From an uncultured Desulfobacteraceae bacterium (GTDB taxonomy: Bacteria > Desulfobacterota > Desulfobacteria > Desulfobacterales > JALSRD01), in assembly GCA_964476595.1 (NCBI GenBank), contig CAYZCL010000108.1:214-64213 (forward strand): a stretch of 64,000 nucleotides of DNA. The letters run 5' to 3'. Made by a program: the position numbers and the translations under genes. Every line of letters starts with the position of its first letter. The first letter of the stretch is position 1. Below the pieces are notes generated by a model, which saw only the letters and a list, made by a program, of their open reading frames with translations, had not been told where the DNA came from and ran no database searches. Of this stretch, positions 21,624 to 56,135 are shown piece after piece.

Positions 21624-21672
21624 CCGTTCGGCACAGGGCCGCGTTCGGCCCCTTCCGCGACCCGCACGGTGT

Positions 21673-24479: not shown

Positions 24480-25463
24480 CTAATCGGACTGCCCCTCCTC
24501 GGTGTAGGCCGCGAAATCGGGGATCTCACGCTTGAGGTACTCTTTCATCTTCTTGAGGATGTTCTTCTCGATCTGGCGCACCCGTTCGCGGGAGATGCCG
24601 TAGCGGTCCCCGATCTCCTGGAGCGTGGCGGGGTTCTCGGAGAAGATGCGCATGTCGAAGATCTCCAGTTCCCGGGGGGTCATCTTCTTGCGGAACTCCG
24701 CGATCTTGGAGTGCAGCAGGGCCTCCATCTCCTTTTTGGCCATCTTGTCCTCGGCCGACTCGGCCTCGGTGCTCAGGAAATCGATGCGCTCGGTGTCCGA
24801 ATCTTCCTTGAGCGGCGCGTCCAGCGAGACGTCCCAGCCGTCCAGACGCAGGTCCATGTCGATGATCTCGCGCTCGGACACGCCCAGGCGCTCGGACAGC
24901 AGCTTGGGCTTGGGGTCGAACCCCTGGTCGATGAGCAGCTGCTTCTCCTTTTTCAGCTTGAAAAACAGCTTGCGCTGCCCCTGGGTGGTGCCGATCTTGA
25001 CCAGTCGCCAGTTGTCCATGATGAACTTCAGGATGTAGGCTTTGATCCAGAAGGAGGCATAATAGGAGAACTTGACGTTCTTGTACGGGTCGAACTTCTT
25101 GACGGCCTGCATCAGGCCGATGTTGCCCTCCTGAATGAGGTCCAGCAGGTTCTGCATCCACACGCGCTGGAACTCCAGGGCGATCTTGACCACCAGGCGC
25201 AGGTTGGAGGTCACCAGCTCGTAGGCCGCCTCGGGGTCGCCGTCCTCCTGCACGCGCATAGCCAGTTCGCGTTCGCGCTCGCGGGTCAGCAGCGGGTACC
25301 TGCTGATCTCGGTCAGGTAGCGCTGAAGCGGGTCGTATTTGACCAGCGCGTGCTCCTGAGCGCCAGCGGCCGCTTTCTTTTCGGCACGGGTTGCAGCCGG
25401 CTTGGACGCACGTCCGGCCTTGGTGGTCTTTTTCGCCTTTACGTTTTTTTTCTTGCTGCTCAT
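24480..25463 (-). CDS. rpoH: RNA polymerase sigma-32 family factor
   Basis: [20 protein letters not shown], RpoH box TTQGQRKLFFKL, SRERVRQIE; Lys/Ala-rich N-terminus. Confidence 0.88.
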   Translation of the reverse strand: MSSKKKNVKAKKTTKAGRASKPAATRAEKKAAAGAQEHALVKYDPLQRYLTEISRYPLLTRERERELAMRVQEDGDPEAAYELVTSNLRLVVKIALEFQRVWMQNLLDLIQEGNIGLMQAVKKFDPYKNVKFSYYASFWIKAYILKFIMDNWRLVKIGTTQGQRKLFFKLKKEKQLLIDQGFDPKPKLLSERLGVSEREIIDMDLRLDGWDVSLDAPLKEDSDTERIDFLSTEAESAEDKMAKKEMEALLHSKIAEFRKKMTPRELEIFDMRIFSENPATLQEIGDRYGISRERVRQIEKNILKKMKEYLKREIPDFAAYTEEGQSD

Positions 25464-25637
25464 CGCGGTTCTTTTCCGGGGTGTTGGCAATCCGTATGCG
25501 CTGCGGCTGTAAAACCGGCATCGACGGCCGCGGCGTTCATTCCTATCTCCACTTTCATCCGGCCGGCACGGCGGTCGGACGGGGCTCTCCGGCGCGGTCA
25601 CGCGGGCGCTCAGCCCGCTCGGGGCGCCATTTAGAGG

Positions 25638-25666
25638 TGGACTTTCGCACGCTCCTGTGCTAACTG
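25638..25666 (+). promoter_or_regulatory. sigma-70-type promoter of tRNA-Arg
   Basis: TGGACT-N17-TAACTG with TGn extension. Confidence 0.5.
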
Positions 25667-25682
25667 ATGGAATCTTGCATGT

Positions 25683-25759
<77 letters not shown>

Positions 25760-25827
25760 GACGGATCCGAAAAGCCGGACGGTGTGTCTGCAGTCCTCCT
25801 CTTTTCCGAGCAGTCAAACTTTTTTCC

Positions 25828-25856
25828 TGTATAGCCCATAAAGGATACACCGTCAA
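25828..25856 (-). promoter_or_regulatory. sigma-70-type promoter pointing antisense through tRNA-Arg toward rpoH
   Basis: TTGACG-N17-TATACA on minus strand. Confidence 0.5.
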
Positions 25857-32091: not shown

Positions 32092-32814
32092 TTACTCGAC
32101 TTCCTCTTCCTCCCGCCAGTAGATGATGCGCTGGCAGTTGGGGCAGAACTTCAGACTGTCGCCGCGCTGCAGCTCGTTGTACAGCTGGGGCGGAATGTTG
32201 ACGTTGCACCCCAGGCAGACGGCGTCACGCACCCGGGCGATGGCCAGGCCGTCCCCCTTCTTGGTGCGGATGAAATCGAACGTCTTCATCAGCTTGGCGT
32301 CGACCGAGGCGGCCAGTTTCGCTTTCTCCGCCTCCAGTTCCGCCATGGCCTTTTCACCCTCCTGCTTTTCGGCCAGCACCTGCCTGCGGTCGGCCTCAAC
32401 CTGCACCTGGAGTTTCTCGAAGGCATCGCGGGCCTCTGCCAGGGCCTGCTTTTCGCCCTCCACGGCGTCCAGGCACTGGATCATCTCGTCCTCGGCGCCG
32501 GAGTATTTTTTCTTGAGTTCGTCGATCTCCTTGAGCAGGGCCTGGTATTCCCGGTTGGTCTTCACCGAGCGCAGTTTGGCCTCGTCGCTCTTGATCTGGG
32601 TCTGGATGGCGCCGGCCTCGGACTCCAGGCCGCGGTAGCGTTTTTCGTCCTCCTCGATACGGGCCTGCATGCCGGCCAGGCGTTCCTGGAAGGCGGCCAG
32701 TTCCCCGTCGAGTTCCGCCAGCCGCCCGGCGGCCTGCTGGAGGGACAGTGCAATGCCGCGGCGGCGGTTCTCGGCCAGCTGCAGCTTCCGTAACAGGTAT
32801 AGCTGTTCTTTCAT
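32092..32814 (-). CDS. Coiled-coil protein with C4 zinc ribbon (DUF164 / CT398-like)
   Basis: Long coiled coil; NREYQAL; CLGCNVNIPPQ..CPNCQRII. Confidence 0.9.
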   Translation of the reverse strand: MKEQLYLLRKLQLAENRRRGIALSLQQAAGRLAELDGELAAFQERLAGMQARIEEDEKRYRGLESEAGAIQTQIKSDEAKLRSVKTNREYQALLKEIDELKKKYSGAEDEMIQCLDAVEGEKQALAEARDAFEKLQVQVEADRRQVLAEKQEGEKAMAELEAEKAKLAASVDAKLMKTFDFIRTKKGDGLAIARVRDAVCLGCNVNIPPQLYNELQRGDSLKFCPNCQRIIYWREEEEVE

Positions 32815-32889
32815 TCGGTATTCTCTCCCGTTTATGGCCCCCCACGCTTCCGAACCGCCCGGCATCCGCTGACCGCCGACACCCGACAG

Positions 32890-33717
32890 CTAAAATATAA
32901 GACGAAAGGGGTCCTTTTCAATGGCGCAGGCCCGCACTTCGGCCCGGATGCCGGCGTCGGACATCCTGCGGCGCAGCTCGTGCGCCAAGGTCTCGACCAC
33001 CAGGAATTCGGAGGCGAAGTGCCCCACGTCGATCAGTCCCCGCCCGGCGCCCGCAGCGTCCATGGCGTCGTGGTAGTGCAGGTCCCCGCTCACGTACGCC
33101 TGCGCGCCGCTGGCGAAAAAATCCTTCATCAGCCCCGATCCGCTGCCCGAACACACGGCCACCCGCTCCACCGCCAGGTGCGGGTCACCGCTGACCTTGA
33201 CCGCCTCCAGCCCCAGCCGCCGGCGAATGAGGGCCGCCAGAGCGACCAGTTCGACGGGCTGCGGCAGCCGACCCACGCGGCCCAGCCCCGACCCGGGGGT
33301 CGCCTTCGTCGTGCAGCCCTCCACGCCTTCGGTGCTCAGCGGCACCAGGTCTTCCAAGCCCAGGCGACGGGCCAGGATGTCGTTGACTCCGCCCACAGCC
33401 GCGTCCAGGTTGGTGTGGGCCGCAAAAACGGCCACCTTCGCGGACAGGGCCCGGGCGATGACGGCGCCCTGCGGGGACTGCAGGTCGATGCGTTTCAGGG
33501 GCCGAAAAATCAGCGGGTGGTGGGTGATCAGCAGGCCGCCCCCCGCGGCGGCGGCCTGCGCCAACACCTCGTGCGTGGCGTCCAGCGCCACCCACACCAC
33601 GGACACCGGCCAGCGCGTGTCGCCCACCTGCAGGCCCACGTTGTCCCACTGCTGCGCCAGGCAGGCGGGCGCCAGGGCCTCCATGATTTCCAGGATGTCG
33701 GCGACGGTCGCGCTCAT
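32890..33717 (-). CDS. Nif3-like dinuclear metal centre protein
   Basis: WDNVGL, ITHHPLIF, AHTNLD, GDLHYH, DVGHFASE. Confidence 0.93.
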   Translation of the reverse strand: MSATVADILEIMEALAPACLAQQWDNVGLQVGDTRWPVSVVWVALDATHEVLAQAAAAGGGLLITHHPLIFRPLKRIDLQSPQGAVIARALSAKVAVFAAHTNLDAAVGGVNDILARRLGLEDLVPLSTEGVEGCTTKATPGSGLGRVGRLPQPVELVALAALIRRRLGLEAVKVSGDPHLAVERVAVCSGSGSGLMKDFFASGAQAYVSGDLHYHDAMDAAGAGRGLIDVGHFASEFLVVETLAHELRRRMSDAGIRAEVRACAIEKDPFRLIF

Positions 33718-39989: not shown

Positions 39990-40052
39990 GTCCCTCTCCG
40001 TGAGTCGTTCGCCCCCGGCCCCGCAGGCCGAAACGGGCCCTCGAAGCGCCTA

Positions 40053-40098
40053 CGCAAAAAAACGCAGAAGAACACGCGGTCATCTTGCGCTTTTTGCG
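40053..40098 (-). terminator. Terminator-like hairpin plus T7 about 60 nt upstream of hisB
   Basis: CGCAAAAAGCGCAAGA..TCTTCTGCGTTTTTTTGCG on minus strand. Confidence 0.5.
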
Positions 40099-40161
40099 GA
40101 CGCCCCCGGTCGGGGGATCTATTTTCTTTGGATTTCCGGGTGATCGACTGCGACAGGCTTT

Positions 40162-40190
40162 CCGGTACACCAAGGCGGGCTGGAAGTCAA
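40162..40190 (-). promoter_or_regulatory. sigma-70-type promoter upstream of hisB
   Basis: TTGACT-N17-TACCGG. Confidence 0.45.
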
Positions 40191-40301
40191 GGAGAACCTC
40201 CGGGGAAACTTCACCCCGGCCGGGAAACGACGGCGGCGCCCCGGTCGCGGGGCGGTGCCGTCGAAGGCAGCCCGGCGCCATCCACGCCGGGCTTCAGCGC
40301 T

Positions 40302-40487
40302 TCAGGCCGCTCTTTTCAGTACGGACCGGCGCTCCCCCTTTCGGGGAGTCATCGGTTTTTTTCGGCGGTCCTCTCCGCTGCGGCGGTCACGTCCCGACCG
40401 GCGCTCCGGTAGATGATTGGCATAGCTGAATTCACGCCGATCGATCCCCGAACGCCGACCGCCGTTATCAAAATAGGCGGTGTCCAC
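40302..40487 (-). CDS. 61-aa Arg-rich microprotein with RRSGxDRR repeats
   Basis: GTG start with strong SD GGAGGAGGGG; GGRRSGIDRR..ERRSGRDRRSGEDRR..GERRS. Confidence 0.75.
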   Translation of the reverse strand: MDTAYFDNGGRRSGIDRREFSYANHLPERRSGRDRRSGEDRRKKPMTPRKGERRSVLKRAA

Positions 40488-40653
40488 AGGTACTTCCCCT
40501 CCTCCCGCATCCTCCGGCGGTATCGGCCAAAATGAAACACATCCGGTCGGTATCACAGCGTCATGGGCATCGGCTGTTCCTGTTTCGATTCTGAAAGGTG
40601 TTCGTCAGATTCCGCCCGGCATAAAAACAAACCTTCTAATGAATTTTCTTTCA

Positions 40654-40670
40654 AGCAACAATGATGCCAA
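40654..40670 (-). promoter_or_regulatory. sigma-54 promoter with IHF-like site and palindromic enhancer
   Basis: TTGGCATCATTGTTGCT (GG-N10-GC); TAACAA-N4-TTG at 40698-40710; perfect 11-bp IR at 40760-40770 / 40784-40794. Confidence 0.75.
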
Positions 40671-40984
40671 TCCCCTTATGTGTTTTTTAACTATTAATAA
40701 CAACAGTTTGAAAACAAGGACCCAGGGGCCGTGTCGAAAAACGGGCCGCAACTGTTACGTTTATTACCGATCTTTATTACATTTCGGTAATAAATTGGGT
40801 GAATTAGGTTATAGACCCGGGCGCCCCGGCCGGACGCGGCGGGCAATCGCACCCCCGCCTGTCCCGGCGGAAAAAGCGCGACCGCGGCCGGAAGCGGATT
40901 AGGAATTGATTTACGGTGCGGGAAATGGCATATCACCGAGAGGCCCCGTGCCCCGGCCGGACGCGGGCCGCCTGAGACCGGACG

Positions 40985-41018
40985 AAAAAGAAAAGGCCTG
41001 CCGGATCCGGCAAGCCTT
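40985..41018 (-). terminator. Intrinsic terminator after tRNA-Ala
   Basis: AAGGCTTGCCGG-AT-CCGGCAGGCCTT then TTCTTTTT. Confidence 0.75.
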
Positions 41019-41027
41019 GTGTTTACA

Positions 41028-41103
41028 TGGTGGAGATGAGGGGGATCGAACCCCTGACCTCAGCGTTGCGAACGCTGCGCTCTCCCAGCTGAGCTACATC
41101 CCC
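41028..41103 (-). tRNA. tRNA-Ala(CGC)
   Basis: GGGGATG..CATCTCC-A-CCA with G3:U70; anticodon arm CAGCG-TTCGCAA-CGCTG. Confidence 0.97.
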
Positions 41104-41146: not shown

Positions 41147-41222
41147 CACCGATTCCGGCACGACGACACGGCCCGGCCGCGGGTGCCCGGGCCGCCCGAT
41201 TTCGACGCAAGGAGCAACCGAC

Positions 41223-42956
41223 ATGCCGTATCCCATCGTACTCAAAGACGCCTTCAAGCGCTTCACGCTGGACCAGGACAAGATCCTGCCGCCCGGGGAG
41301 ACCGTGCGGCGTTTCCGGCGCAAGCTCGAAAAACTGGACCTGGACATTCTCCGCGAGACCCGGCGCATCGACAACGGGCGGCTGGGCATTCCGGTTTACT
41401 TCAGCATCTGCGGCCGGGACGCCGCCGCCCTGACCGGCACCCGTAAGCAGATGGGCAAGGGCGCCACGCCCGAGCAGGCCGAGGCCAGCGCCGTCATGGA
41501 GCTGGCCGAGCGTTTCTCCTTCTTCAGCTTCCGCAGCAACCCGGCCAACTTCCGGCGGGCCACCTACGCGCAGGTGCGCGACCGGGCCATGCCCTTCGAG
41601 CTGATCGCGGCCTCGGTGCACGACACCTCCGAGGACCTCGAGGCGGCCCGCGGCATCTTCGAGCAGCTGCCGCTGCAGTGGACCGCGGGCTACAGCCTGA
41701 CGCAGCAGCGAGAAGTGCTGATCCCCTTTTCGTGGTTCTTCGCCATCAACGAGTTCAACGGCCCCTCGGCCGGCAACTGCGTGGAGGAGGCCCTTTCCCA
41801 GGGCATCTGCGAGATCGTCGAGCGCCACGTGTCGGCCCTGGTCAGCCGCGGGCGCATACCGGTGCCGCTCATCGATCCCGATTCGGCCACGGACCCCATG
41901 GTGCGCGACATGATCGCCAAGTACCGCCGCGCCGGCATCGTGCTCTACCTCTCGGACTTCTCGCTGGACACGGGCATCCCCACCGTGGGGGCCGTGGCCT
42001 ACGACCCGGCCACCTTCCCGCGCCACAGTGAGATCGTGTGGACCGCCGGCACCACCCCCGACCCCGAAAAAGCCCTCAGCCGCACCCTGACCGAGGTCGC
42101 CCAGCTGGCCGGCGACTTCAACACCGGCTCCAACTACGTGGCCAGCGGGCTGCCCAAACCCGCGAGCATCGCCGAGCTGGATTTCATCACGCGGGCCTCC
42201 TCCCGGGTGCCCATCGGCAGCCTGCCCGACCTTTCCAGCAACAACATCCGCCTGGAAGTCGAGGCCCTGGTGCAGGCCCTCGCCCGCAAGGGTATGGAGG
42301 TCTTTGTGATCGATACCACCCACCCGGCGCTGGGCGTACCGGCCTTCTACACCATCGTGCCGGGAGCGCACTTCCGCGAACGGGCCGTGGGAACCGGGGT
42401 GGGCATGTTCGCCGCCAGGCTGATCGCCGAAAACACCGCGCCCCGCCGGGCCATCGCCCGGCTGGAAGAAATCGACCGACTCCTGCCGGGCAAGTATTAC
42501 GTCAGCTTCTACCTGGGCCGCTGCCGCCTGGAGCTGGGCGAGCCGGAAGAGGCCCGCCGCCACCTGGAACGGGCACTGGAACTGGACCCCGGCGACGAGG
42601 ACCGGGCCAGCATCTACTCCTACCTGGGCATCTGCCACAAAGAGCGCGGCCGCTACCGGGAAGCGCTGGCCGTGCTGGCGCAGGGCGAGCGCTGCGACCC
42701 GCAGCGCACCGACATCCTCAACCTGATGGGCTTCTGCCACTTCAAGCTCGGGGAACACGAAAAGGCCATCGCCTGTTTCCGGCGGGTCATCGAGCTGGAT
42801 CCCGGCTCGGCCATCGACTACGCCAACATCGCCTCCAACTACCGCGACATGGGCCGGCGCAAGGAGGCCGTGCGCTACTACCGCATGGCGCTGGAACTGG
42901 ACCCGGGCATCGACTTCGCACGCGAAAACCTGGAAAAGCTGACTTCCGGGGAGTGA
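41223..42956 (+). CDS. YcaO-family ATP-dependent backbone-activating enzyme fused to C-terminal TPRs
   Basis: MGKGATPEQAEASAVMELAERF, FNGPSAGNCVEEALSQGICEIVERH, RTLTEVAQ; about 5 TPRs at C-terminus. Confidence 0.88.
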   Translation: MPYPIVLKDAFKRFTLDQDKILPPGETVRRFRRKLEKLDLDILRETRRIDNGRLGIPVYFSICGRDAAALTGTRKQMGKGATPEQAEASAVMELAERFSFFSFRSNPANFRRATYAQVRDRAMPFELIAASVHDTSEDLEAARGIFEQLPLQWTAGYSLTQQREVLIPFSWFFAINEFNGPSAGNCVEEALSQGICEIVERHVSALVSRGRIPVPLIDPDSATDPMVRDMIAKYRRAGIVLYLSDFSLDTGIPTVGAVAYDPATFPRHSEIVWTAGTTPDPEKALSRTLTEVAQLAGDFNTGSNYVASGLPKPASIAELDFITRASSRVPIGSLPDLSSNNIRLEVEALVQALARKGMEVFVIDTTHPALGVPAFYTIVPGAHFRERAVGTGVGMFAARLIAENTAPRRAIARLEEIDRLLPGKYYVSFYLGRCRLELGEPEEARRHLERALELDPGDEDRASIYSYLGICHKERGRYREALAVLAQGERCDPQRTDILNLMGFCHFKLGEHEKAIACFRRVIELDPGSAIDYANIASNYRDMGRRKEAVRYYRMALELDPGIDFARENLEKLTSGE

Positions 42957-43037: not shown

Positions 43038-45284
43038 CTATCGCGAAGCGCTCTTCGACACGCGGCCCCTGAGCGCCGCGATGCGGGCCTCCACCGCATC
43101 GCAACCGGCCGCCATGCCGACCAGCGCCTCGGCAGCGCGGCGCCGGCTTTCGTGCGTGCCGGCGGCCAGGTCGGAAAGACGCGCCAGGTCCGCGTCGTAG
43201 GACTGGAAACGCCCGGCCAGCTCCTGGCGGATGCTCCCGGCGAAAGCGTCCAGCAGTTTGAGCAGGTACTGGAACTTGATGTTCTCGCGGTAGTCCAGGA
43301 ACGAGGCGCGCATGCTCTTCTCCATCTCGCGCTTGATGCGCCGCACGCTGTGTTCGAGGGCCCGCACCACCTCGCGGTTCCCGTCGGCGTCCCTGGAGCG
43401 CAGCAACCGGCGGGCCAGGCGCAGCAGCGAAAACACTCCGTAGTGGGCCACCACCTCGGCCCGGATGCGCGCCGAGTAGCGCATGGTCATGCGCGCGGCC
43501 GGCAGCCGGATGCCGGCCCGGCGGCGCACGATTTCCAGCTCGGGCAGCCGGAAGGGCTGCACGGCGGGCCGTTCGTCCGCCGGATCCGCGCCCCCCAGGT
43601 CGCGCTCGTAGGCCTGCAGGCTGTCACGCCCCATCTCGTCGAAGGGCGCCACCACCGCTTCCAGTTCATGCCGGATACGCTCCTCGCAGCGGCGGACGAA
43701 TTTCACCACCCGCGGGTGGATGGTTTCGGTGAGGTAGACATCCAGCGCCTGCCGGAAATCCTGGTAGACCAGGTAAAGGGTCTGGTTGAAGCCGGCCGAC
43801 GCGATCTGCTCCCGGTAGGCCCCGTAGGAGACCTCGTAGCCGCGGATGAAATCCAGCACGTCCCCCAGCAGTCCCCCGGCGCGGTCGTCGAAGAAGCGGT
43901 CGGTCTCGGTTTTCAGTTCCCGGCGCACCGGCTGCAGGGCGCCGTCCAGGGTGGTCTTCACCATGACGTGCAGATGGGTGATCTTCTTCTGGTGGCGGGC
44001 GATGCCGGAGACCAGTTCACGCACGCCGTCGGCGTCGCGCGTCAGCATCTGCCGGTGGATGTCCACCCACCGGCGCAGCGCGGCGGCCACCACGGCGATG
44101 CGCTCCAGGTGGTTGCCCAGCAGCAGGCGGCTGCGCTGGTGGGCCAGGTGGTGGCCGAAGACCGCCTCGAAACGCTCCCGCTGAGCGTCGCAGAAGGCCA
44201 CCAGTTCGGCGTCCGCCTCCCACTGGGCCAGGCGCAGGCGGTCTCTTTCGCCGAGTTGCGCGTCCGGGCGGCGCAACAGGTTGTAGAGCGCCGAGAAGGC
44301 GTACACCTCCGGCTCGGGCTTGATCACCGCCAGGTCCCGCCGGGTGCGCTCGACCAGCGCCTCCAGTTCGCGACGCGACTCGTGCTCGCCGAAATCGGTG
44401 TTGACCACGAAGATCATGTTGCCGATGATGCCCATCTCGCGGATCATCGACAGGAATCGGATGTCCGCCTGGCGCAAACCGGTGCGGCTGCTGATGAGGT
44501 AGACGATGAAGTGCGTCAGCAGCAGGTAGTCCTGGATCATGGACAGGTGCAGGGGATTGGGGGAATCGCTGCCCTGGCAGTCGGCCAGCTCCAAGTCGTC
44601 TTCCAGCAGCGGTGCCGGGATCTCCAGCAGGGCGTCCTGCAGGTAGACGGCCAGGGCGTCGGCGCTGACGAACTCCTGGTGCTGTGCGAAAACCTCCGCC
44701 TCCAGCACCCTGACGCCGGTCTCGGCGCCGAACAGCTCCGATACCCGCTCGTAGCCCTCCAGGTAGGCCGCCAGCAGGATGGCGTTCTCGTTTCTCCGCC
44801 CGTCGCGGATGAGCAGTTCCGGTCCCGCCTCCGCCAGTGCCCGTGCGAGGGCCTTGCGGTCCGCGGCGCGCCGGATGTCGAAAGATTCCCGCTCGCGGTC
44901 CCACAACGGGGCCGGGAACAGCACCAGGGCCTGTTCGATGTCGGCGTTGATCTCGTCCCAGGGCTTGAACGTCAGCGTGGCCCGGGGGCCGCGGCCGCCG
45001 CGGATACGCGTGACGATGGAGGTCATCACGCCCGCACCGCGGCGCAGGTGGTCGGCGCCCAGCAGCGCGTTGATGAAGGTGCTCTTGCCGGACTTGATGG
45101 CGCCCACCACGGCCACGCGCACCACGTCCTCGGACATCTGCTCCTCGACGGCGTCGCAGCTTCGGCGCCAGCGGGCAAAGACCGCCTCGGCCAGGTCGGG
45201 GACCGCGGCGGCGGTGTCGAACAGGCGGTCCAGTTCCCCTTTGACCTGCAGTATCTCGGCTTTGATGCTTTTGTATGCGTCCAT
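43038..45284 (-). CDS. Bacterial dynamin-like GTPase
   Basis: G1 VGAIKSGKSTFINALLG, G2 GVMTSIVT, G3 LADCQG, G4 region VVNTD; long helical stalk. Confidence 0.8.
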   Translation of the reverse strand: MDAYKSIKAEILQVKGELDRLFDTAAAVPDLAEAVFARWRRSCDAVEEQMSEDVVRVAVVGAIKSGKSTFINALLGADHLRRGAGVMTSIVTRIRGGRGPRATLTFKPWDEINADIEQALVLFPAPLWDRERESFDIRRAADRKALARALAEAGPELLIRDGRRNENAILLAAYLEGYERVSELFGAETGVRVLEAEVFAQHQEFVSADALAVYLQDALLEIPAPLLEDDLELADCQGSDSPNPLHLSMIQDYLLLTHFIVYLISSRTGLRQADIRFLSMIREMGIIGNMIFVVNTDFGEHESRRELEALVERTRRDLAVIKPEPEVYAFSALYNLLRRPDAQLGERDRLRLAQWEADAELVAFCDAQRERFEAVFGHHLAHQRSRLLLGNHLERIAVVAAALRRWVDIHRQMLTRDADGVRELVSGIARHQKKITHLHVMVKTTLDGALQPVRRELKTETDRFFDDRAGGLLGDVLDFIRGYEVSYGAYREQIASAGFNQTLYLVYQDFRQALDVYLTETIHPRVVKFVRRCEERIRHELEAVVAPFDEMGRDSLQAYERDLGGADPADERPAVQPFRLPELEIVRRRAGIRLPAARMTMRYSARIRAEVVAHYGVFSLLRLARRLLRSRDADGNREVVRALEHSVRRIKREMEKSMRASFLDYRENIKFQYLLKLLDAFAGSIRQELAGRFQSYDADLARLSDLAAGTHESRRRAAEALVGMAAGCDAVEARIAALRGRVSKSASR

Positions 45285-51161: not shown

Positions 51162-51986
51162 TCAGGCACCGTCCCGCAGGTATCGCACCGCGTTGCGGAA
51201 CAGCTGCACGCCGATACCCTCCGGGGGCGGCTCCGGTTCCCCGGCCCGCAGGCGGCGCCGGCGATCCAGGTTCCAGTCGGGGTGGTTGGCGAAGTGGTTG
51301 AAGGCCTCGGGGTGGGGCATCAGGCCGAACACGCGCCCGCTGGGGTCGCAGATGCCGGCGATGTCGCCCAGCGAACCGTTGGGGTTGTCGGGGAACCGGC
51401 CTTCGGCGGGGCGACCGTCACCGCCGGCGTACTGCATGACCACCTGGTTTTGCGCGAAGAGGCGCGTGACGACCTCCTCGTCAGCGGTGAACTTGCCCTC
51501 GCCGTGTCGCACCGGCAGCGCGATGCGCTCCAGGCCGCGGGTGAAGACGCAAGGCGACGCCGGGTTGACCTTCAGGTCGACCCACTGGTCCCGGAAATTA
51601 CCGCAGTCGTTGGCCGTCAGCGCCACGCAGCGCTCGCCGTAGCGCCCGTCGAAACCCGGCAGCAGGCCGAAGTTGGCCAGGGTCTGGAAGCCGTTGCAGA
51701 TGCCTATCACCAGGTTGCCGGCCTCGATGAAGGCCAGGATGCGCTCGCCGATGTGGGTCTTGAGCCGCACGGCCTGCAGCACCCCGGCGCCGTGGTCGTC
51801 GCCCCAGCTGAAGCCGCCGCCGAAGACCAGGATGCGGCAGTCGTCCAGGCGGTCCGGCTCGGCGATGAGGGCGTTGATGTGGGTGCGCCGCACCCGCGCG
51901 CCGGCCAGTTCCAAGGCGTAGGCCGTTTCCAGGTCGCAGTTGAGGCCGAAGCCCGTCAGCACCATTGCGTTGACGTCACGAGTCAT
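51162..51986 (-). CDS. purQ: FGAM synthase glutaminase subunit
   Basis: GLNCDLET, GGFSWGD, GICNGFQ, HGEG, GLMPHPE. Confidence 0.95.
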   Translation of the reverse strand: MTRDVNAMVLTGFGLNCDLETAYALELAGARVRRTHINALIAEPDRLDDCRILVFGGGFSWGDDHGAGVLQAVRLKTHIGERILAFIEAGNLVIGICNGFQTLANFGLLPGFDGRYGERCVALTANDCGNFRDQWVDLKVNPASPCVFTRGLERIALPVRHGEGKFTADEEVVTRLFAQNQVVMQYAGGDGRPAEGRFPDNPNGSLGDIAGICDPSGRVFGLMPHPEAFNHFANHPDWNLDRRRRLRAGEPEPPPEGIGVQLFRNAVRYLRDGA

Positions 51987-54979
51987 CACAGTTCTCCAAA
52001 CGGGGCCTTCCAGGCCCTTCTGAGGCCGTCCAGTCCCGCATCCACGATGGTTTCCCCCGCCAGCCCGGTAATGCGCAGCCGCCTGTCGGCGGTAACGCGG
52101 CCGACGTCGGCCAGCGGCAATCCCCTGAAGCGCTCCTCGAAGGCGCCGCGGTCGTCGGGTGCCACGGTGACGATGAAGCGGCCGGCCGACTCCGAAAACA
52201 GCAGGCGGTCGTCGCGCACACAGTCCTCGGCCGGCACGCGGCGCAGGTCCACGTCCATGCCCAGGTCGGCCGCCAGGGCCACCAGGGCCAGGTGCACGCC
52301 CAGGCCGCCGCTGTAGACGCCGTGCACCGAGGCGGCCAGGTCGGCGGCCACGGCCCCCGACAGCGCCCGGTACAGGGGCGCAAAATCGTCGGGGCGCACG
52401 CGCGGCACACGCAGCCCGGTGAAGCCCAGGTGGGCGAAATACTCGGACCCGCCCAGTTCGTCGCGCGTCGTGCCCAGCAGGTAAACCCGGTCGCCTTCGA
52501 ACTTGCTCTCCAGGGTGGTGCAGCGTGTGATGTCCTCGATCACCGCGACGGCCGAAAACTGCAGTGTCTCCAGGGCCGAGACCTTGCGCGTCTCGCCGTA
52601 GGGCCCGGCCAGGTGTCCGTCGACGTACATGCTGTCCTTTCCGGAGAGCAGCGGGATGCCGTAGGCCAGGCACAGGTCTTTGAGCGCGCGGCAGGAACGC
52701 ACCAGCTGCGCGGCCTTGAAGCGCCCGTCCGGGTTGCCCGCCGGGTCGTAGCCGATGCTCGGCCAGCAGAAATTGTCCACCCCGCCGATGTGTTCGGGGT
52801 CAGCGCCCACGGCCACCAGCCGTCGCACGGCCTCGTCGATGGTACAGGCCGTCATGTGGTAGGCGTCGATGGCCGAGTAGGCGGGCAGCAGCGCCTGGGA
52901 AAAGGCCAGCCCGCGGGGCGAGTCCAGCACCGGCCGGATAACGGCCGCATCCGAGGGCACGTCGCGCCGGCGGCCCACCAGGGGCTTGACGATGCTCGAG
53001 CCCTGCACCTCGTGGTCGTACTGGCGGGTGATCCACTCCTTGCTGCACAGGTTGGGGCGCGCCAGCATGTCGGCCAGCAGGCGATCGTAGTCACGGGGCG
53101 CCCCGATGACGGGTTCGCACAGGCCGCGGCTTTCGGGCGAACGCCAGTGGGCGTCGAACTCCCACTGCGGAAAGCCGGCCGTCAACAGGTCCAGGTCCAC
53201 GTAGGCGCAGGTCTCGCCTTTCCAGGTGACGTGCAGCTTGCCCGAGTCGGTGTAGCGGCCGATGACGGTGCTCTCGACGGCGTGCAGCCGCGAGAGCGCC
53301 ATGAAGCGCTCCAGGTCTTCGGGGGCGATGGCGACCGTCATGCGCTCCTGGGACTCGGACACCCAGATCTCCCACTGGTCCAGACCCTCGTACTTGAGCG
53401 GCACGCGGTCCAGCTCGACCTCGCAGCCGCCGGCGAAACGCGCCGACTCGCCGATGGACGAGGACAGTCCGCCGCCGCCGTTGTCGGTGATGAAGCGGAT
53501 CAGACCCTGGTCGCGGGCCTCTATCAGGAAGTCGTGCATCTTCTTCTGGGTGTAGGGGTCGCCGATCTGCACGTGTCCGGCGGGCGTGTTCTCGCTGAAG
53601 ACCTCGGATGAGGCCGTCACGCCGTGGATGCCGTCTTTTCCCACGCGGCCGCCGCACATGATGATCAGGTCTCCCGGGCGGGTGCGCTTCTCGTGCGAGG
53701 GGCGCCCGGCCACTTCGGCCGGCATCATGCCCACGGCGGTCACGAAGACCAGGGACTTTCCGATGTAGCCGGGGTCGAAGAGCACCTGTCCGAAGGTGGT
53801 CGGCACGCCGCTCTTATTGCCGCCGTCGCGCACACCCTCGATGACACCGTCCAGCAATCGGCGGGGGTGCAGGTGGGGCCTGAGGTCCCCGTCGTAGTCC
53901 CGCGGCCCCACGCAGAAGCCGTAGCTGCCCATCACCAGGCGGGCGCCCAGGCCGGTGCCCATGGGGTCGCGGTAGACGCCCACGATGCCGGTGATGGCGC
54001 CGCCGTAAGCCTCCATGTTGGACGGCGAGTTGTGGGTCTCGCCGGTGATGACGTAGAGGTTATCGTCGTCGAAGCGCCCCACGCCGGCATTGTCCCAGAG
54101 CACCGAGACCACCCAGTCCTTGCGCTTCTGCAGCGCCAGGGTGGGCGCCTCGATGCAGGTCTTGAAAAGACTGTCGACGGTCTCGCTCTCGCCGCTGTCC
54201 AGGTCACGGTAGCGGAAGAGACCGCGGAAGGTGTTGTGGTTGCAGTGGTCGCTGCGGGCCTGGGAGATGTACTCCAGCTCGAGATCGGTGGGGTCCGAGA
54301 GCCCCACCGCGGCGCGCGCCCGGCGCACCTCGGGGTCCAGGAAGTAGGCCCGGATGGTGGGGATGTCGGCCGGGTTGAGCGCCAGGTTGCGGCGGTCGCT
54401 GATGCGCCGCAGCTCCTCGTCGCTGCCGATGGAGATCACCTCCACCGTGGGCGTGTGGTCCAGCACCACCCTGGGCACGTTCGGCCCCACGCCCTGCCGC
54501 GGGTCCCAGCCGGCGGCGTCGATGACCTTCCAGCGCTGGATGATGTCGTTGGCCAGCAGTTCGGCGGCGATGCGGGCGGCGCCCTCGCGGTCCAGGTTTC
54601 CGCCGCGCACGCAGTAGCGCCGCGAGGTGTAGACGGCCTCGCCCTCGGCCAGGCGGATGCCCAGCACGTCTTCCAGGGCTTCGGCGGCCGTGCTGCCGGG
54701 GTTGTCGCGCACGCCGGGGCGGTACCCCACCCAAATGGTCCAGTCGAAGTCCACCGCCAGGGGGCGGTAGGAGGAGACCTGGGTGACGGGGTTGGTGAAG
54801 ACCTCCCGCCGGAGGATCTCGCGCTGTGCGTCCGTCAGGCGTACGTCGAAGGTGACGATGTGCACGGTGCGCACGGCGGACAGTTCGAAGCCGAAGTAGT
54901 CGCGGGCCTTGCGTCGGATGGCCTCGCCTTCGGCGTCCAGCAGGTGCGGTTTGAGGGTGATTTCCAGCTGAAAGGGCAT
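51986..54979 (-). CDS. purL: FGAM synthase subunit PurL with PurS-like N-terminal domains
   Basis: SDHCNHNTF, ETHNSPS, GGRVGKDGIHG, DNGGGGLSS, SESQERM, SGKDS. Confidence 0.95.
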   Translation of the reverse strand: MPFQLEITLKPHLLDAEGEAIRRKARDYFGFELSAVRTVHIVTFDVRLTDAQREILRREVFTNPVTQVSSYRPLAVDFDWTIWVGYRPGVRDNPGSTAAEALEDVLGIRLAEGEAVYTSRRYCVRGGNLDREGAARIAAELLANDIIQRWKVIDAAGWDPRQGVGPNVPRVVLDHTPTVEVISIGSDEELRRISDRRNLALNPADIPTIRAYFLDPEVRRARAAVGLSDPTDLELEYISQARSDHCNHNTFRGLFRYRDLDSGESETVDSLFKTCIEAPTLALQKRKDWVVSVLWDNAGVGRFDDDNLYVITGETHNSPSNMEAYGGAITGIVGVYRDPMGTGLGARLVMGSYGFCVGPRDYDGDLRPHLHPRRLLDGVIEGVRDGGNKSGVPTTFGQVLFDPGYIGKSLVFVTAVGMMPAEVAGRPSHEKRTRPGDLIIMCGGRVGKDGIHGVTASSEVFSENTPAGHVQIGDPYTQKKMHDFLIEARDQGLIRFITDNGGGGLSSSIGESARFAGGCEVELDRVPLKYEGLDQWEIWVSESQERMTVAIAPEDLERFMALSRLHAVESTVIGRYTDSGKLHVTWKGETCAYVDLDLLTAGFPQWEFDAHWRSPESRGLCEPVIGAPRDYDRLLADMLARPNLCSKEWITRQYDHEVQGSSIVKPLVGRRRDVPSDAAVIRPVLDSPRGLAFSQALLPAYSAIDAYHMTACTIDEAVRRLVAVGADPEHIGGVDNFCWPSIGYDPAGNPDGRFKAAQLVRSCRALKDLCLAYGIPLLSGKDSMYVDGHLAGPYGETRKVSALETLQFSAVAVIEDITRCTTLESKFEGDRVYLLGTTRDELGGSEYFAHLGFTGLRVPRVRPDDFAPLYRALSGAVAADLAASVHGVYSGGLGVHLALVALAADLGMDVDLRRVPAEDCVRDDRLLFSESAGRFIVTVAPDDRGAFEERFRGLPLADVGRVTADRRLRITGLAGETIVDAGLDGLRRAWKAPFGEL

Positions 54980-55067
54980 GGCGGCGGGCTCCGCGTTTTG
55001 GGGTTGGATTGCCGGCAGGGGGCCGTGCGCGGCGGCCCCGGTGCTGTCTTTCGGCGGCGTGGCCGGG

Positions 55068-56135
55068 CTAGCTGAAGAACATGCGCGTGATGTCATTGTA
55101 AAACACGAAAATCATCAGCAGAATCAGAATGAAAATGCCGGCCTGCTGGGCGATCTCGCGGGCGCGCAGGCTCAGCGGGCGCCGCAGGACGGCCTCGATG
55201 GTGAAAAACATCAGGTGGCCGCCGTCGAGCACCGGGATGGGCAGAAAGTTGAGGATCGCCAGGTTGATGCTCAGCAGCGCGATGAAGAAGGCCAGGTTGG
55301 AGGTCCCCTCCTTGGCCTGCTGCCCGGCCATTTCGGCGATCATCAGCGGCCCGCCCAGGGTCTTGGCCGACACGCTGCCCTGGATCAGCTTGACGACGCT
55401 GAGCACGGTCAGCCTGGTGATCTGCCAGGTCTGCACCACGCTCTGGCCCATGGCCTCCAGCGGTCCCAGCGTCACGGCGCGGGTGTCCCCGGCCGAGGTG
55501 ATACCGATCACGTAGCGCGAGATTTCCTCGCCGAAGATGTTGCGTGTCTTGGTCGGCTCGGGTGTCACCGTCAGCGCCAGCTCCTGCCCGTCGCGACGCA
55601 CGGTCAGCGTCAGCGGCCGGCCGCCGCTTCCCGTGATCACGCCGGCCATCTGCTCCCAGGTGTCCACCGGCCGTCCGTCGATGGCCACGATGCGGTCGCC
55701 GTTCTGCAGGCCGGCCCGCGCGGCCGGAGAGTCCGGCGTCACCTTGCCCACGGTGGGCTGCAGCACGAAGGTGCCGGAGACCAGGAAGAGCACGAAGAAG
55801 ATGACCACCGCCAGCAGGATGTTGAACACCGGTCCGGCGGCCACGATCAGGAAACGGCGGGTCAGGGATTTGTGGGTGAAAGACAGCGGCAGCAGCTCCG
55901 GGGGCACCTCGACGTCGGGCTCGTCGCCCACCATCTTGACGTAGCCGCCCAGCGGAATGGCGGAAATACGGTAGTCCGTCAGCCCGATCTTTTTGCCCAC
56001 GATGCGCGGGCCGAAGCCCAGGGAGAACTTCTCGACCCCCACGCCGCACAGGCGCGCCACGATGAAATGGCCGAACTCGTGCACGAAGATGAGCACACCC
56101 AGCACGATGATGAAGGCAAAGACACTGGTGGTCAT
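55068..56135 (-). CDS. rseP: RIP metalloprotease RseP
   Basis: HEFGH, GGYVKM, AGPVFN, PDZ, NFLPIPVLDGG. Confidence 0.97.
   Translation of the reverse strand: MTTSVFAFIIVLGVLIFVHEFGHFIVARLCGVGVEKFSLGFGPRIVGKKIGLTDYRISAIPLGGYVKMVGDEPDVEVPPELLPLSFTHKSLTRRFLIVAAGPVFNILLAVVIFFVLFLVSGTFVLQPTVGKVTPDSPAARAGLQNGDRIVAIDGRPVDTWEQMAGVITGSGGRPLTLTVRRDGQELALTVTPEPTKTRNIFGEEISRYVIGITSAGDTRAVTLGPLEAMGQSVVQTWQITRLTVLSVVKLIQGSVSAKTLGGPLMIAEMAGQQAKEGTSNLAFFIALLSINLAILNFLPIPVLDGGHLMFFTIEAVLRRPLSLRAREIAQQAGIFILILLMIFVFYNDITRMFFS

What the first reader, a model, noticed from the sequence alone, without database searches (positions are those of the whole stretch)
41223..42956. Stand-alone YcaO-TPR fusion with no RiPP precursor or TfuA nearby
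Seen: intact ATP/Mg motifs (GKG, ELAERF, NGPSAG, EIVERH); about 180 aa of TPRs replace the PxP C-terminus of azoline-forming YcaOs; neighbours are a tRNA and a dynamin-like gene. Established: YcaOs phosphorylate backbone amides to form azolines, amidines or thioamides, including on a folded protein (methyl-coenzyme M reductase, with TfuA). Inference: the TPRs recruit a folded protein substrate, implying an unknown backbone modification in a sulfide-rich organism where free sulfide could replace TfuA.
Basis: partly seen in the sequence, partly recalled or inferred. Interest (0 to 1): 0.7.

Follow-up and report, generated by a model that had tools for sequence, protein, structure and literature searches.

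The report
Orphan YcaO–TPR enzyme of sulfate reducers
This is an intact, single-gene ATP-dependent "YcaO" enzyme fused to a TPR protein-binding domain. It belongs to a family conserved across sulfate-reducing bacteria that has already been reported (DVU2210 of Desulfovibrio vulgaris), whose target is still unknown and which most likely puts sulfur into the backbone of a cellular protein.

Summary
Window 41223-42956 (+) encodes a 577-aa protein with a full YcaO domain, all ATP/Mg motifs and about 5.5 TPR repeats. It has no PxPxP tail. No TfuA, E1-like partner or precursor ORF was found among about 50 window ORFs scanned.

It is 43% identical over its full length, TPRs included, to the Miyazaki F counterpart of D. 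vulgaris DVU2210. That "YcaO-like, TPR domain protein" was published in 2020 for a molybdate-sensitivity phenotype, with its target unknown. In 2026 E. coli YcaO, also YcaO plus a TPR-like domain without TfuA, was shown to thioamidate folded ribosomal protein uL16. The window protein fails every curated subfamily model (E. coli, McrA, TOMM) and is not acidic like the uL16 enzymes.

New here: relatives carry lineage-specific, co-oriented adjacent partner genes.
- DsrC/TusE sulfur-relay protein: all 7 testable loci in four deep clades.
- Three-cysteine LarE-type sulfurtransferase: about 20% of the window's own clade.
- METTL21-like protein methyltransferase: 6 of 8 Desulfovibrio-type loci.

These partners favour TfuA-independent thioamidation of a protein. 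The target remains unidentified.

The parts
41223..42956 (+). ycaO-TPR gene, 577 aa, apparently monocistronic
   Evidence: ORF and translation. GC3 is 0.91. Full-length homologues are 64-92% identical. All conserved neighbours lie on the opposite strand.
41210..41214 (+). Shine-Dalgarno AGGAG, 8 nt before the ATG
   Evidence: Read from the sequence.
41223..42377 (+). YcaO catalytic domain (aa 1-385; Pfam match aa 77-382)
   Evidence: Pfam E 8e-81. AF2 model. Best Foldseek hits are M. jannaschii YcaO 6peu/6pe3 and LynD 4v1t.
41454..41516 (+). GKG (aa 78-80) to ELAERF (aa 93-98): N-terminal ATP/Mg-binding residues
   Evidence: G78, G80, S89 and E96 are invariant across 58 family members.
41766..41825 (+). 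ATP-binding motif SAGNCVEEALSQGICEIVER (aa 182-201; Sx6Ex3Qx3ExxER)
   Evidence: G184, N185, E189, E197 and R201 are invariant in 58 sequences; E200 is invariant in the 28-sequence set and at least 90% conserved in the 58. The molybdate-resistance mutation S195R of DVU2210 lies in this motif (PMC7774982).
42399..42947 (+). C-terminal TPR domain (aa 393-575; eleven helices, about 5.5 repeats)
   Evidence: Pfam TPR_1/2/8/12 and others. DSSP helices of the model. Matches to consensus-TPR crystal structures.
41028..41103 (-). tRNA-Ala(cgc), divergent upstream neighbour; context only, with a terminator-like hairpin at 41018-40993
   Evidence: ARAGORN; terminator scan.
43038..45284 (-). Dynamin-like GTPase, convergent downstream neighbour; syntenic context, no functional link shown
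   Evidence: Pfam Dynamin_N. Adjacent in 32 of the 118 loci of the window's clade, of which 99 have at least 500 nt of downstream sequence.

Best explanation
The gene encodes a catalytically competent, housekeeping YcaO-TPR enzyme. It is the Desulfobacterales counterpart of Desulfovibrio vulgaris DVU2210.

Proposed mechanism, by inference from YcaO enzymology: the YcaO domain binds ATP/Mg. A sulfur nucleophile attacks one backbone amide carbonyl of a genome-encoded protein that is specified elsewhere in the chromosome and is not a RiPP precursor. The resulting oxyanion is phosphorylated and phosphate is eliminated, leaving a thioamide. The C-terminal TPR domain serves as a docking or dimerisation module for the folded partner.

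In this genome the gene stands alone, so sulfur would come from ambient sulfide or from a carrier encoded elsewhere. In related lineages the adjacent DsrC/TusE sulfur-relay protein or the three-cysteine LarE-type sulfurtransferase probably delivers it. In Desulfovibrio a METTL21-like methyltransferase probably co-modifies the same target.

Shown: the identity, intactness and conservation of the gene, the absence of a RiPP context, and the partner genes in relatives. Inferred: the chemistry (thioamide), a protein as substrate, and the role of the TPR domain.
For: Intact enzyme:
- Full-length YcaO domain with invariant ATP/Mg residues.
- Confident two-domain model, pLDDT 94.
- The best structural match is the thioamide-forming, TfuA-independent M. 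jannaschii YcaO, with TM 0.75-0.79 on the target. E. coli YcaO aligns over about 600 columns, that is across both domains.
- The highest-scoring specific NCBIfam model is the McrA-thioamidation YcaO.

Housekeeping and vertically inherited:
- Relatives were found in at least 581 species genomes, at 62-72% identity in the best 80.
- About 22 clusters at 50% identity keep the full architecture, down to 35% identity.
- 43% identity over aa 5-573 to the N. vulgaris Miyazaki F protein, which carries 19 of the 20 residues of the DVU2210 motif.
- Remnant synteny with NIF3/CT398 genes is seen both in the window and in the distant locus L081.

Not a RiPP cluster:
- No precursor room, TfuA, E1-like protein or dehydrogenase.
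- All conserved neighbours in 81 loci lie on the opposite strand.

Sulfur and protein-modification context in relatives:
- DsrC/TusE, with both cysteines kept, lies directly downstream and co-oriented in all 7 loci that have downstream sequence, spread over four clades separated at the 55% identity level.
- A LarE-family gene (305 bits against a cut-off of 150; PP-loop plus three cysteines) lies directly upstream and co-oriented in 19 of 95 loci of the window's own clade and in one further clade. The outer flanks vary.
- A Methyltransf_16 gene abuts ycaO in 6 of 8 Desulfovibrio-type loci, including N. vulgaris Miyazaki F. Its best solved relative is the protein-lysine methyltransferase METTL21A.

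Precedent: E. coli YcaO, which has a TPR-like domain and no TfuA, thioamidates folded uL16 (PMC13063428).

Genetics: loss of DVU2210, or a change in its ATP motif, alters physiology (molybdate resistance in a delta-sat background; higher fermentative yield), so the enzyme is active in vivo (PMC7774982).
Against: - No modification, substrate or sulfur dependence has been demonstrated for any member of the family.
- The protein falls below the curated cut-off of every functional YcaO subfamily.
- Sequence and fold do not reliably separate thioamide-forming from azoline- or amidine-forming YcaOs.
- The window itself holds none of the partner genes, so their relevance to this genome is extrapolated.
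- The partners differ between clades, and a 15-locus clade has only RNase D upstream. This could reflect local synteny rather than function.
- A DVU2210 deletion mutant grows like wild type on sulfate, so any target is not essential for sulfate respiration.
Confidence: 0.5

Rival explanations
1. Functional equivalent of E. coli YcaO. The enzyme thioamidates ribosomal protein uL16, or another protein of the translation machinery, near the peptidyl-transferase centre. This is a specific sub-case of the best explanation.
For: - Same two-domain layout, and no TfuA, as in E. coli YcaO.
- Neighbours in relatives are often translation-related. lepA overlaps the ycaO start by 4 nt in L081. prmA lies divergently adjacent in L084, L089 and L085. 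There is a METTL21-like methyltransferase operon, mnmA and gatB in L082, RNase D upstream in 15-17 loci, and a MiaB/RimO-type methylthiotransferase two genes downstream in L093/L094.
Against: - NF040716 (the E. coli YcaO equivalog) scores 64.7 bits against a cut-off of 700 and covers only aa 161-294.
- Identity is 27% and confined to the YcaO domain; the TPR regions do not align even profile-to-sequence.
- pI is 6.1, and the median is 5.4 over the 158 retrieved proteins of 560-625 aa. The uL16-modifying group is defined by strong acidity, about 4.4.
- Each translation-related neighbour is specific to one lineage.
Confidence: 0.15
2. DsrC itself is the substrate. The TPR domain clamps the conserved flexible C-terminal arm of DsrC (...GLPKPTGCV), and the YcaO domain modifies a backbone amide in it, tuning the sulfite-reduction sulfur relay.
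For: - DsrC is the immediate co-oriented downstream gene in all 7 loci with downstream sequence, across four deep clades. Its C-terminal arm and both cysteines are conserved.
- TPR domains classically bind C-terminal peptides (established knowledge).
- DVU2210 mutations arise in the same syntrophy-evolution lines as sulfate-respiration mutations (PMC8319347; discussion).
Against: - The DVU2210 deletion mutant respires sulfate like wild type.
- To my knowledge, no backbone modification has been reported in solved DsrAB-DsrC structures.
- Adjacency fits DsrC as sulfur donor equally well.
- dsrC is not adjacent in the window, in Desulfovibrio, or in most Desulfobacterales loci.
Confidence: 0.12
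3. RiPP maturase (azoline, amidine or thioamide) whose precursor peptide and partners are encoded elsewhere in the genome.
For: Most characterised YcaOs are RiPP enzymes. The cyanobactin cyclodehydratases LynD, TruD and MusD are among the best sequence and fold matches.
Against: - No precursor, E1-like/RRE partner, dehydrogenase, protease or transporter was found in 64 kb.
- TOMM model 126 bits against a cut-off of 219; no PxPxP tail.
- A single-copy core-genome pattern with 62-72% identity across hundreds of species and old synteny is unlike the patchy distribution of RiPP clusters.
Confidence: 0.08
4. The enzyme acts on a non-protein substrate. One version is ATP-dependent activation of an oxyanion such as molybdate (the futile-cycle idea of Zane et al.). 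Another is a small-molecule or cofactor thio-modification made together with LarE.
For: - Molybdate resistance on loss of DVU2210 in a delta-sat background; the authors propose an unstable adenosine 5'-molybdophosphate.
- LarE normally thiolates a nicotinic-acid-derived cofactor precursor (established knowledge), and it is the operon partner in about 20 loci.
Against: - To my knowledge, all characterised YcaOs phosphorylate peptide or protein backbone amides; none is known to adenylate oxyanions.
- DVU2210 expressed in E. coli did not confer molybdate sensitivity.
- No larB or larC was seen beside the larE-ycaO pairs.
- A TPR domain and a protein methyltransferase partner point to a protein.
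- The molybdate phenotype is also explained if molybdate or thiomolybdate perturbs the sulfur nucleophile of a protein-directed reaction (inference).
Confidence: 0.1

Closest known systems
DVU2210 of Desulfovibrio (Nitratidesulfovibrio) vulgaris Hildenborough, 'YcaO-like, TPR domain protein' (Zane, Wall & De Leon 2020, PMC7774982)
   Same: Same architecture and length. The window protein is 43% identical over aa 5-573, TPRs included, to the Miyazaki F counterpart, which carries 19 of the 20 residues of the quoted DVU2210 ATP motif. The same ATP motif is intact.
   Different: Different order (Desulfobacterales-like rather than Desulfovibrionales). The Desulfovibrio genes sit in a two-gene operon with a METTL21-like methyltransferase, which is absent from the window. 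The biochemical function of DVU2210 is itself unknown; only the molybdate and syntrophy-evolution phenotypes are known.
E. coli YcaO, the uL16 Met82 backbone thioamidase (Rice et al. 2026, PMC13063428; PDB 4Q84-86)
   Same: A stand-alone YcaO domain followed by a 150-180 aa helical-repeat (TPR-type) domain. No TfuA and no precursor nearby. It acts on a folded protein. Foldseek aligns about 600 columns across both domains.
   Different: Only 27% identity, and only in the YcaO domain. The NF040716 score is 64.7 against 700. pI is 6.1 against 4.4. The TPRs here are canonical consensus-like repeats detected by Pfam. The domain orientation differs (rmsd about 13 A).
Methanogen McrA-glycine thioamidation YcaO (TIGR03266; M. 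jannaschii 6PE3/6PEU, M. kandleri 6CI7)
   Same: Best fold matches and the best specific HMM. It is protein-directed thioamidation. The M. jannaschii enzyme works without TfuA, using sulfide (established knowledge; Rice et al. discussion).
   Different: 131.9 bits against a cut-off of 365. The methanogen enzymes are about 380 aa and have no TPR domain. The host is bacterial, and no MCR is seen in the window.
Azoline-forming cyclodehydratases (TOMM SagD family TIGR03604; LynD, TruD)
   Same: Same YcaO fold and ATP site, with comparable sequence scores.
   Different: Below cut-off (126 against 219). No C-terminal PxPxP, no fused or adjacent E1-like/RRE domain, and no precursor or dehydrogenase.

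Membership tests
YcaO superfamily (PF02624 / TIGR00702) | Full-length YcaO domain above the curated cut-off | tested here: met
   PF02624 272 bits against 25.7, profile positions 1-324 of 325. TIGR00702 129 bits against 75.65.
YcaO superfamily (PF02624 / TIGR00702) | ATP/Mg-binding motif Sx6-7Ex3Qx3ExxER and the N-terminal Glu residues | tested here: met
   S182, E189, Q193, E197, E200, R201, plus E93 and E96, are present and conserved family-wide.
DVU2210-type YcaO-TPR family of Thermodesulfobacteriota | End-to-end similarity to DVU2210-type proteins with the same YcaO + C-terminal TPR architecture | tested here: met
   43% identity, E 2e-150, aa 5-573 against 2-579 of P0344 (N. vulgaris Miyazaki F). 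P0344 matches the published DVU2210 motif at 19 of 20 residues.
DVU2210-type YcaO-TPR family of Thermodesulfobacteriota | Orthology (one copy per genome, reciprocal best hit) | not testable with these tools
   Only a 64-kb window of the genome is available. Supporting but indirect: graded identity series from 92% to 35%, and shared NIF3/CT398 vicinity in the window and L081.
E. coli-type uL16-thioamidating YcaO (NF040716 'YcaO_for_S12') | Score above the equivalog cut-off | tested here: not met
   64.7 bits against 700; only aa 161-294 match.
E. coli-type uL16-thioamidating YcaO (NF040716 'YcaO_for_S12') | Strongly acidic protein (pI about 4.4), complementary to basic uL16 | tested here: not met
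   pI 6.11 for the full protein, 6.06 for the YcaO domain and 6.18 for the TPR domain. The median over the 158 retrieved proteins of 560-625 aa is 5.4. The criterion comes from PMC13063428.
E. coli-type uL16-thioamidating YcaO (NF040716 'YcaO_for_S12') | C-terminal TPR-like domain; no TfuA or precursor nearby | tested here: met
   Foldseek alignment of about 600 columns to 4q84/85/86. No TfuA in the window. The TPR regions are not alignable by sequence.
E. coli-type uL16-thioamidating YcaO (NF040716 'YcaO_for_S12') | Thioamidation of uL16 Met82 | not testable with these tools
   Needs mass spectrometry or complex prediction.
McrA-glycine thioamidation YcaO (TIGR03266) | Score above the equivalog cut-off | tested here: not met
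   131.9 bits against 365.
McrA-glycine thioamidation YcaO (TIGR03266) | Adjacent tfuA and/or a host encoding MCR | tested here: not met
   No TfuA in the window ORFs, and no recurrent TfuA-like neighbour cluster in 171 related loci. The hosts are bacteria.
TOMM / azoline-forming cyclodehydratase (TIGR03604 SagD family) | Score above the cut-off | tested here: not met
   126 bits against 219.25.
TOMM / azoline-forming cyclodehydratase (TIGR03604 SagD family) | C-terminal PxPxP motif | tested here: not met
   No P.P.P anywhere in the protein; the C-terminus is a TPR helix ending ...LEKLTSGE.
TOMM / azoline-forming cyclodehydratase (TIGR03604 SagD family) | Clustered precursor peptide, E1-like/RRE partner and dehydrogenase | tested here: not met
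   None in the window. The flanking gaps are 119 nt and 81 nt.
Anti-phage defence systems (PADLOC) | Match to a defence-protein model | tested here: not met
   No PADLOC hit for the YcaO-TPR protein. The dynamin-like neighbour has only a weak N-terminal LeoA match.

The most novel reading that the evidence does not exclude
The YcaO-TPR family is a housekeeping backbone-thioamidation system of Thermodesulfobacteriota that is plugged into the dissimilatory sulfur relay. A DsrC/TusE persulfide, or a three-cysteine LarE-type sulfurtransferase, would replace TfuA/ThiS as sulfur donor. Alternatively, the C-terminal arm of DsrC is itself the TPR-docked substrate. The target protein would be co-methylated by a METTL21-like enzyme in Desulfovibrio. 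This reading would also explain the DVU2210-dependent molybdate sensitivity as interference with the sulfur nucleophile of the reaction.
Probability: 0.2. Interest if true: 0.85.

Novelty: new member of a known kind. Interest (0 to 1): 0.55.

Why it matters
Backbone thioamides are known in only two proteins, McrA and uL16. Both lie close to a catalytic centre, and both are made by YcaO enzymes.

A third protein-directed YcaO family, conserved across sulfate-reducing Thermodesulfobacteriota, would point to another hidden modification in organisms that drive the global sulfur cycle. It would also clarify how molybdate, a widely used inhibitor of sulfate reducers, acts.

The question is directly testable. 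A clean DVU2210 deletion already exists. The partner genes found here (dsrC/tusE, larE, a METTL21-like methyltransferase) narrow the search for the sulfur donor and the target.

For the window gene itself the result is more modest: it is an ordinary, intact member of a family that has been published but not characterised.

Tried and rejected
- **Recovering DVU2210 by sequence.** I queried with the 20-aa motif printed in PMC7774982. A padded 45-mer chimera found nothing and cost one search. I solved it instead by searching with a Desulfovibrio-type representative, which returned the N. vulgaris Miyazaki F protein.
- **Precursor search.** All ORFs of at least 20 aa between hisB and ycaO were listed. 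None is plausible or conserved.
- **Rfam at E <= 1 over 39-46 kb.** It returned only the tRNA (scored as a sub-threshold tmRNA tRNA-like domain) and chance hits. There is no riboswitch or leader RNA.
- **Promoter and terminator scan.** No convincing sigma-70 promoter for ycaO. Only the tRNA terminator was found.
- **PADLOC.** No defence-system affiliation.
- **Conserved neighbours in 80 Desulfobacterales loci.** hisB, a lipoprotein, hisA, dnaG, rpoD, ParA-like, dynamin-like and AlgH are all on the opposite strand. I read this as core-genome synteny, not an operon.
- **Cluster names.** These were sparse: only Desulfatiglandales and Thermodesulfobacterium.
- **RNA-seq.** No RNA runs hold the sequence; it appears only in DNA metagenome contigs, so transcription could not be checked.
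- **Model coordinates.** These are not exposed to scripts, so I could not analyse electrostatics or how the TPR groove faces the active site.
- **Complex prediction.** Predicting YcaO with DsrC, uL16 or the methyltransferase is not possible with the tools given.
Full report
**1. Observation**

The ORF at 41223-42956 (+) is real. It starts with ATG, has AGGAG 8 nt upstream, and has a GC3 of 0.91, like the other genes of this 66% G+C window. Pfam finds a complete YcaO domain at aa 77-382 (E 8e-81, profile positions 1-324 of 325), followed by TPRs that pass more than ten TPR models over aa ~400-575.

The published YcaO ATP motif Sx6Ex3Qx3ExxER is intact as S182/E189/Q193/E197/E200/R201. There is no PxPxP motif; the chain ends in a TPR helix.

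AlphaFold2, run on a 58-sequence alignment, gives pLDDT 94 and pTM 0.89. The model shows a YcaO fold at aa 1-385 and eleven helices (about 5.5 TPRs) at aa 393-575.

The neighbours are as described: tRNA-Ala(cgc) at 41028-41103 (-) and a Dynamin_N protein at 43038-45284 (-).

**2. "Stand-alone" status in the window**

The gaps beside the gene are 119 nt and 81 nt. No plausible small ORF lies in the 1.2 kb upstream. Pfam scans of about 50 ORFs over 0-59 kb found housekeeping genes:
- rpoD, dnaG, hisA, hisB, NIF3, a CT398-like gene and mutS;
- purL, rseP, cdsA, uppS, frr, pyrH and others.

No TfuA, ThiF/E1-like, dehydrogenase, transporter or other RiPP-type gene appeared. Rfam found nothing near the gene except the tRNA, and PADLOC found nothing.

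**3. Family**

The protein has thousands of database relatives. The best 120 all share the architecture, are 570-614 aa long and are 64-92% identical. Where named, they come from Desulfonema, Desulfobacteraceae and "Thermodesulfobacteriota".

In a one-genome-per-species collection, at least 581 species encode a close relative. The best 80 are nearly all labelled Desulfobacterales, Desulfobacteria or "delta proteobacterium" MAGs at 62-72% identity; one MAG is labelled Nitrospinaceae.

An exhaustive search of 50%-identity representatives shows about 22 clusters that keep the full architecture down to 35% identity. Two of them carry taxon names, Desulfatiglandales and Thermodesulfobacterium.

A search seeded with one representative at 40% identity to the window protein (P0134) returned Desulfovibrio species and the N. 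vulgaris Miyazaki F protein.

The window sequence itself occurs in hydrothermal-vent metagenomes.

**4. What is already published**

(a) Zane, Wall and De Leon 2020 (PMC7774982) described DVU2210 of D. vulgaris Hildenborough as a "YcaO-like, TPR domain protein". An S195R change in its ATP motif, or deletion of the gene, makes a delta-sat strain molybdate-resistant. The deletion mutant respires sulfate normally and ferments to a higher yield. The native target is stated to be unknown. DVU2210 is also a high-G-score mutated gene in D. vulgaris / Methanococcus syntrophy evolution (PMC8319347).

The Miyazaki F protein carries 19 of the 20 residues of the quoted DVU2210 motif. It is 43% identical to the window protein over aa 5-573, TPRs included. 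The window gene is therefore a member of the DVU2210 family.

(b) Rice et al. 2026 (PMC13063428) showed that E. coli YcaO thioamidates Met82 of folded ribosomal protein uL16. That enzyme is a YcaO domain plus a 150-residue TPR domain that mediates dimerisation and may help bind uL16. It has no TfuA and a pI of 4.4. About 1,200 mostly acidic relatives are predicted to do the same.

I found no paper linking YcaO with DsrC, and only one review that mentions both LarE and YcaO.

**5. Relation to characterised YcaOs**

The protein falls below every curated subfamily cut-off:
- McrA-thioamidation: 131.9 against 365.
- TOMM SagD: 126 against 219.
- E. coli YcaO: 64.7 against 700.

Against E. coli YcaO, only the YcaO domain aligns (27% identity by BLASTP; profile alignment covers 19-407 only).

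By fold, the best matches are the thioamide-forming M. jannaschii YcaO (TM 0.75-0.79 on the target), then LynD, and then E. coli YcaO. The E. coli enzyme aligns over about 600 columns, that is both domains, but with rmsd about 13 A.

The pI is 6.1, and the median over the 158 retrieved proteins of 560-625 aa is 5.4. This is not the extreme acidity used to define the uL16-modifying group.

The protein therefore works like a protein-directed, TfuA-independent YcaO. It is not a member of the E. coli, methanogen or TOMM families.

**6. Genomic context in relatives (the new information)**

*Window's own clade.* This clade holds 118 loci at the 55% identity level. All conserved neighbours are on the opposite strand: hisB, a lipoprotein, hisA, dnaG and rpoD upstream; a ParA-like gene, the dynamin-like gene and AlgH downstream. 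This is core-genome synteny rather than an operon.

However, 19 of the 95 loci with enough upstream sequence carry a different upstream gene. It is co-oriented and lies between 11 nt of overlap and a 336-nt gap in the 13 metagenome loci where the gap could be measured; the GTDB loci show similar spacing. It belongs to the LarE sulfurtransferase family:
- TIGR00268 scores 305 bits against a cut-off of 150.
- It has a PP-loop SGGxDS.
- It has a CxxC motif plus C[LM]A[ST]R. By my reading, this three-cysteine pattern marks the iron-sulfur type of LarE.
- The outer flanks vary between loci.

*DsrC/TusE.* Four separate deep clades have YcaO proteins only 42-46% identical to one another. In these, all 7 loci with downstream sequence carry a co-oriented DsrC/TusE gene 2-209 nt after ycaO. 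The gene scores 111 bits against 53.5 on TIGR03342, and both functional cysteines are kept (...GACKMAGLPKPTGCV). In two of these loci a MiaB/RimO-type radical-SAM methylthiotransferase follows two genes later.

*Desulfovibrio-type loci.* In 6 of 8 loci, including N. vulgaris Miyazaki F, a 232-273 aa Methyltransf_16 gene abuts or overlaps the ycaO start. Its best solved relatives are the protein methyltransferases METTL21A, PRMT7 and PrmA. prmA itself lies divergently next door in three loci.

*Other lineages.*
- RNase D lies upstream in 15-17 loci.
- lepA overlaps the ycaO start by 4 nt in one locus.
- A NIL-4Fe4S ferredoxin lies downstream and mnmA divergently upstream in a Thermodesulfobacterium-like contig.

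None of these partners is present in the window.

**7. Mechanism**

*Shown:* an intact ATP site; a conserved two-domain protein; in vivo activity of the Desulfovibrio member of the family (from the cited genetics); absence of a RiPP context; and recurrent adjacency to sulfur-relay and protein-methylating genes in relatives.

*Inferred:* the enzyme phosphorylates the tetrahedral adduct formed when a sulfur nucleophile attacks a backbone amide of a folded protein, giving a thioamide. The TPR domain docks the partner and/or dimerises the enzyme.

Sulfur would come from ambient sulfide in genomes such as this one. Where they are encoded alongside, a DsrC/TusE persulfide or the LarE-type enzyme would supply it. 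The first route would be analogous to the TusE-to-MnmA sulfur relay.

The molybdate phenotype can be reread as interference by molybdate or thiomolybdate with that nucleophile, causing futile ATP use or a dead-end adduct. This is inference only.

The target is unknown. Candidates are a component of the translation machinery (uL16-like) and DsrC itself.

**8. Rivals**

- uL16 thioamidation, as in E. coli. Context hints favour it; the failed membership tests and the pI argue against it.
- DsrC as substrate rather than donor.
- A RiPP maturase with a distal precursor. This is unlikely given the core-genome behaviour and the lack of cluster genes.
- A non-protein substrate, either molybdate adenylation or a LarE-linked cofactor. 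This goes against what I know of YcaO chemistry, and DVU2210 did not sensitise E. coli to molybdate.

**9. Verdict**

The fusion itself is not new: DVU2210 was described in 2020, and the concept was shown for E. coli YcaO in 2026. The window copy carries no partner gene.

What remains interesting is the family-level question of which protein is modified and how sulfur is delivered.

**10. Limits**

- Only 64 kb of the genome is available.
- Neighbour calling used simple ORF finding and BLAST clustering.
- Metagenomic loci lack taxonomy.
- No complex prediction, transcript data or model coordinates were available.
- One protein search was wasted.

Noticed in passing
window 39990-41027: A non-coding gap of about 1 kb lies between hisB and tRNA-Ala in an otherwise tightly packed window. 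It includes a sharply AT-rich patch at about 40560-40810 (for example ...ttttttaactattaataacaacagtttgaaaac...) in a 66% G+C genome. There was no Rfam hit, only one weak promoter-like site, and no credible ORF. It could be a regulatory region or a remnant of an insertion next to the tRNA.
   Followed up: partly
window 41028-41103 (-): ARAGORN calls this tRNA-Ala(cgc). Rfam scores it as the tRNA-like part of tmRNA (43.3 bits, below the gathering score of 47), and that hit outranks the tRNA model within the clan. It is most likely just a tRNA-Ala, since no tag-peptide region follows.
   Followed up: partly
window 43038-45284 (-): A 748-aa bacterial dynamin-like GTPase lies convergent with ycaO. 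It is adjacent in 32 of the 118 loci of the window's clade (99 have at least 500 nt of downstream sequence). It has a weak N-terminal match to PADLOC LeoA. Its function here is unknown.
   Followed up: partly
window 32092-33717 (-) and L081 10197-11786: The gene pair NIF3 (DUF34) and CT398-like zinc-ribbon lies 8 kb from ycaO in the window and directly downstream of ycaO in the distant locus L081. This looks like old synteny of the ycaO-TPR gene with the rpoD/dnaG/NIF3 region.
   Followed up: partly
L093 2854-4455, L094 5314-7095, L097 8294-10003, L098 2068-3753: A conserved protein of 533-593 aa with no Pfam match follows ycaO-TPR and dsrC in four loci. In L093 and L094 it is followed by a UPF0004 + radical-SAM methylthiotransferase. 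It may be a further member of that gene cluster.
   Followed up: no
L082 1-1398 and 9756-10190: The Thermodesulfobacterium-like contig carries a second, TPR-less YcaO (485 aa, cut by the locus end) 6.6 kb upstream of the YcaO-TPR gene. A NIL-domain 4Fe-4S ferredoxin lies 13 nt downstream of the YcaO-TPR gene.
   Followed up: no
window 24480-25856 (-) and 25683-25759 (+): The longest ORF for a sigma-70-family protein overlaps tRNA-Arg(tct) on the other strand. The true start codon is probably further downstream, since the Pfam sigma regions begin at aa 175.
   Followed up: no
window 51986-55096 (-): A single 1036-aa ORF combines PurS, a FGAR-AT linker and PurL (AIRS/AIRS_C) domains. This is a fused PurS-PurL FGAM synthase.
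   Followed up: no
window 20335-21707 (-): A RimK-like ATP-grasp gene (RimK glutamylates ribosomal protein S6 in E. coli) overlaps the ORF of a Mut7-C RNase-domain protein. No link to the YcaO gene was examined.
   Followed up: no
L102, L106, L107, L108, L130 (about 60-170 nt downstream of ycaO): In five loci of the RNase D-linked clade, a co-oriented protein of about 229 aa with a CxxCxxCC domain (PF03692, a putative Fe/Zn-binding domain) directly follows ycaO-TPR.
   Followed up: no
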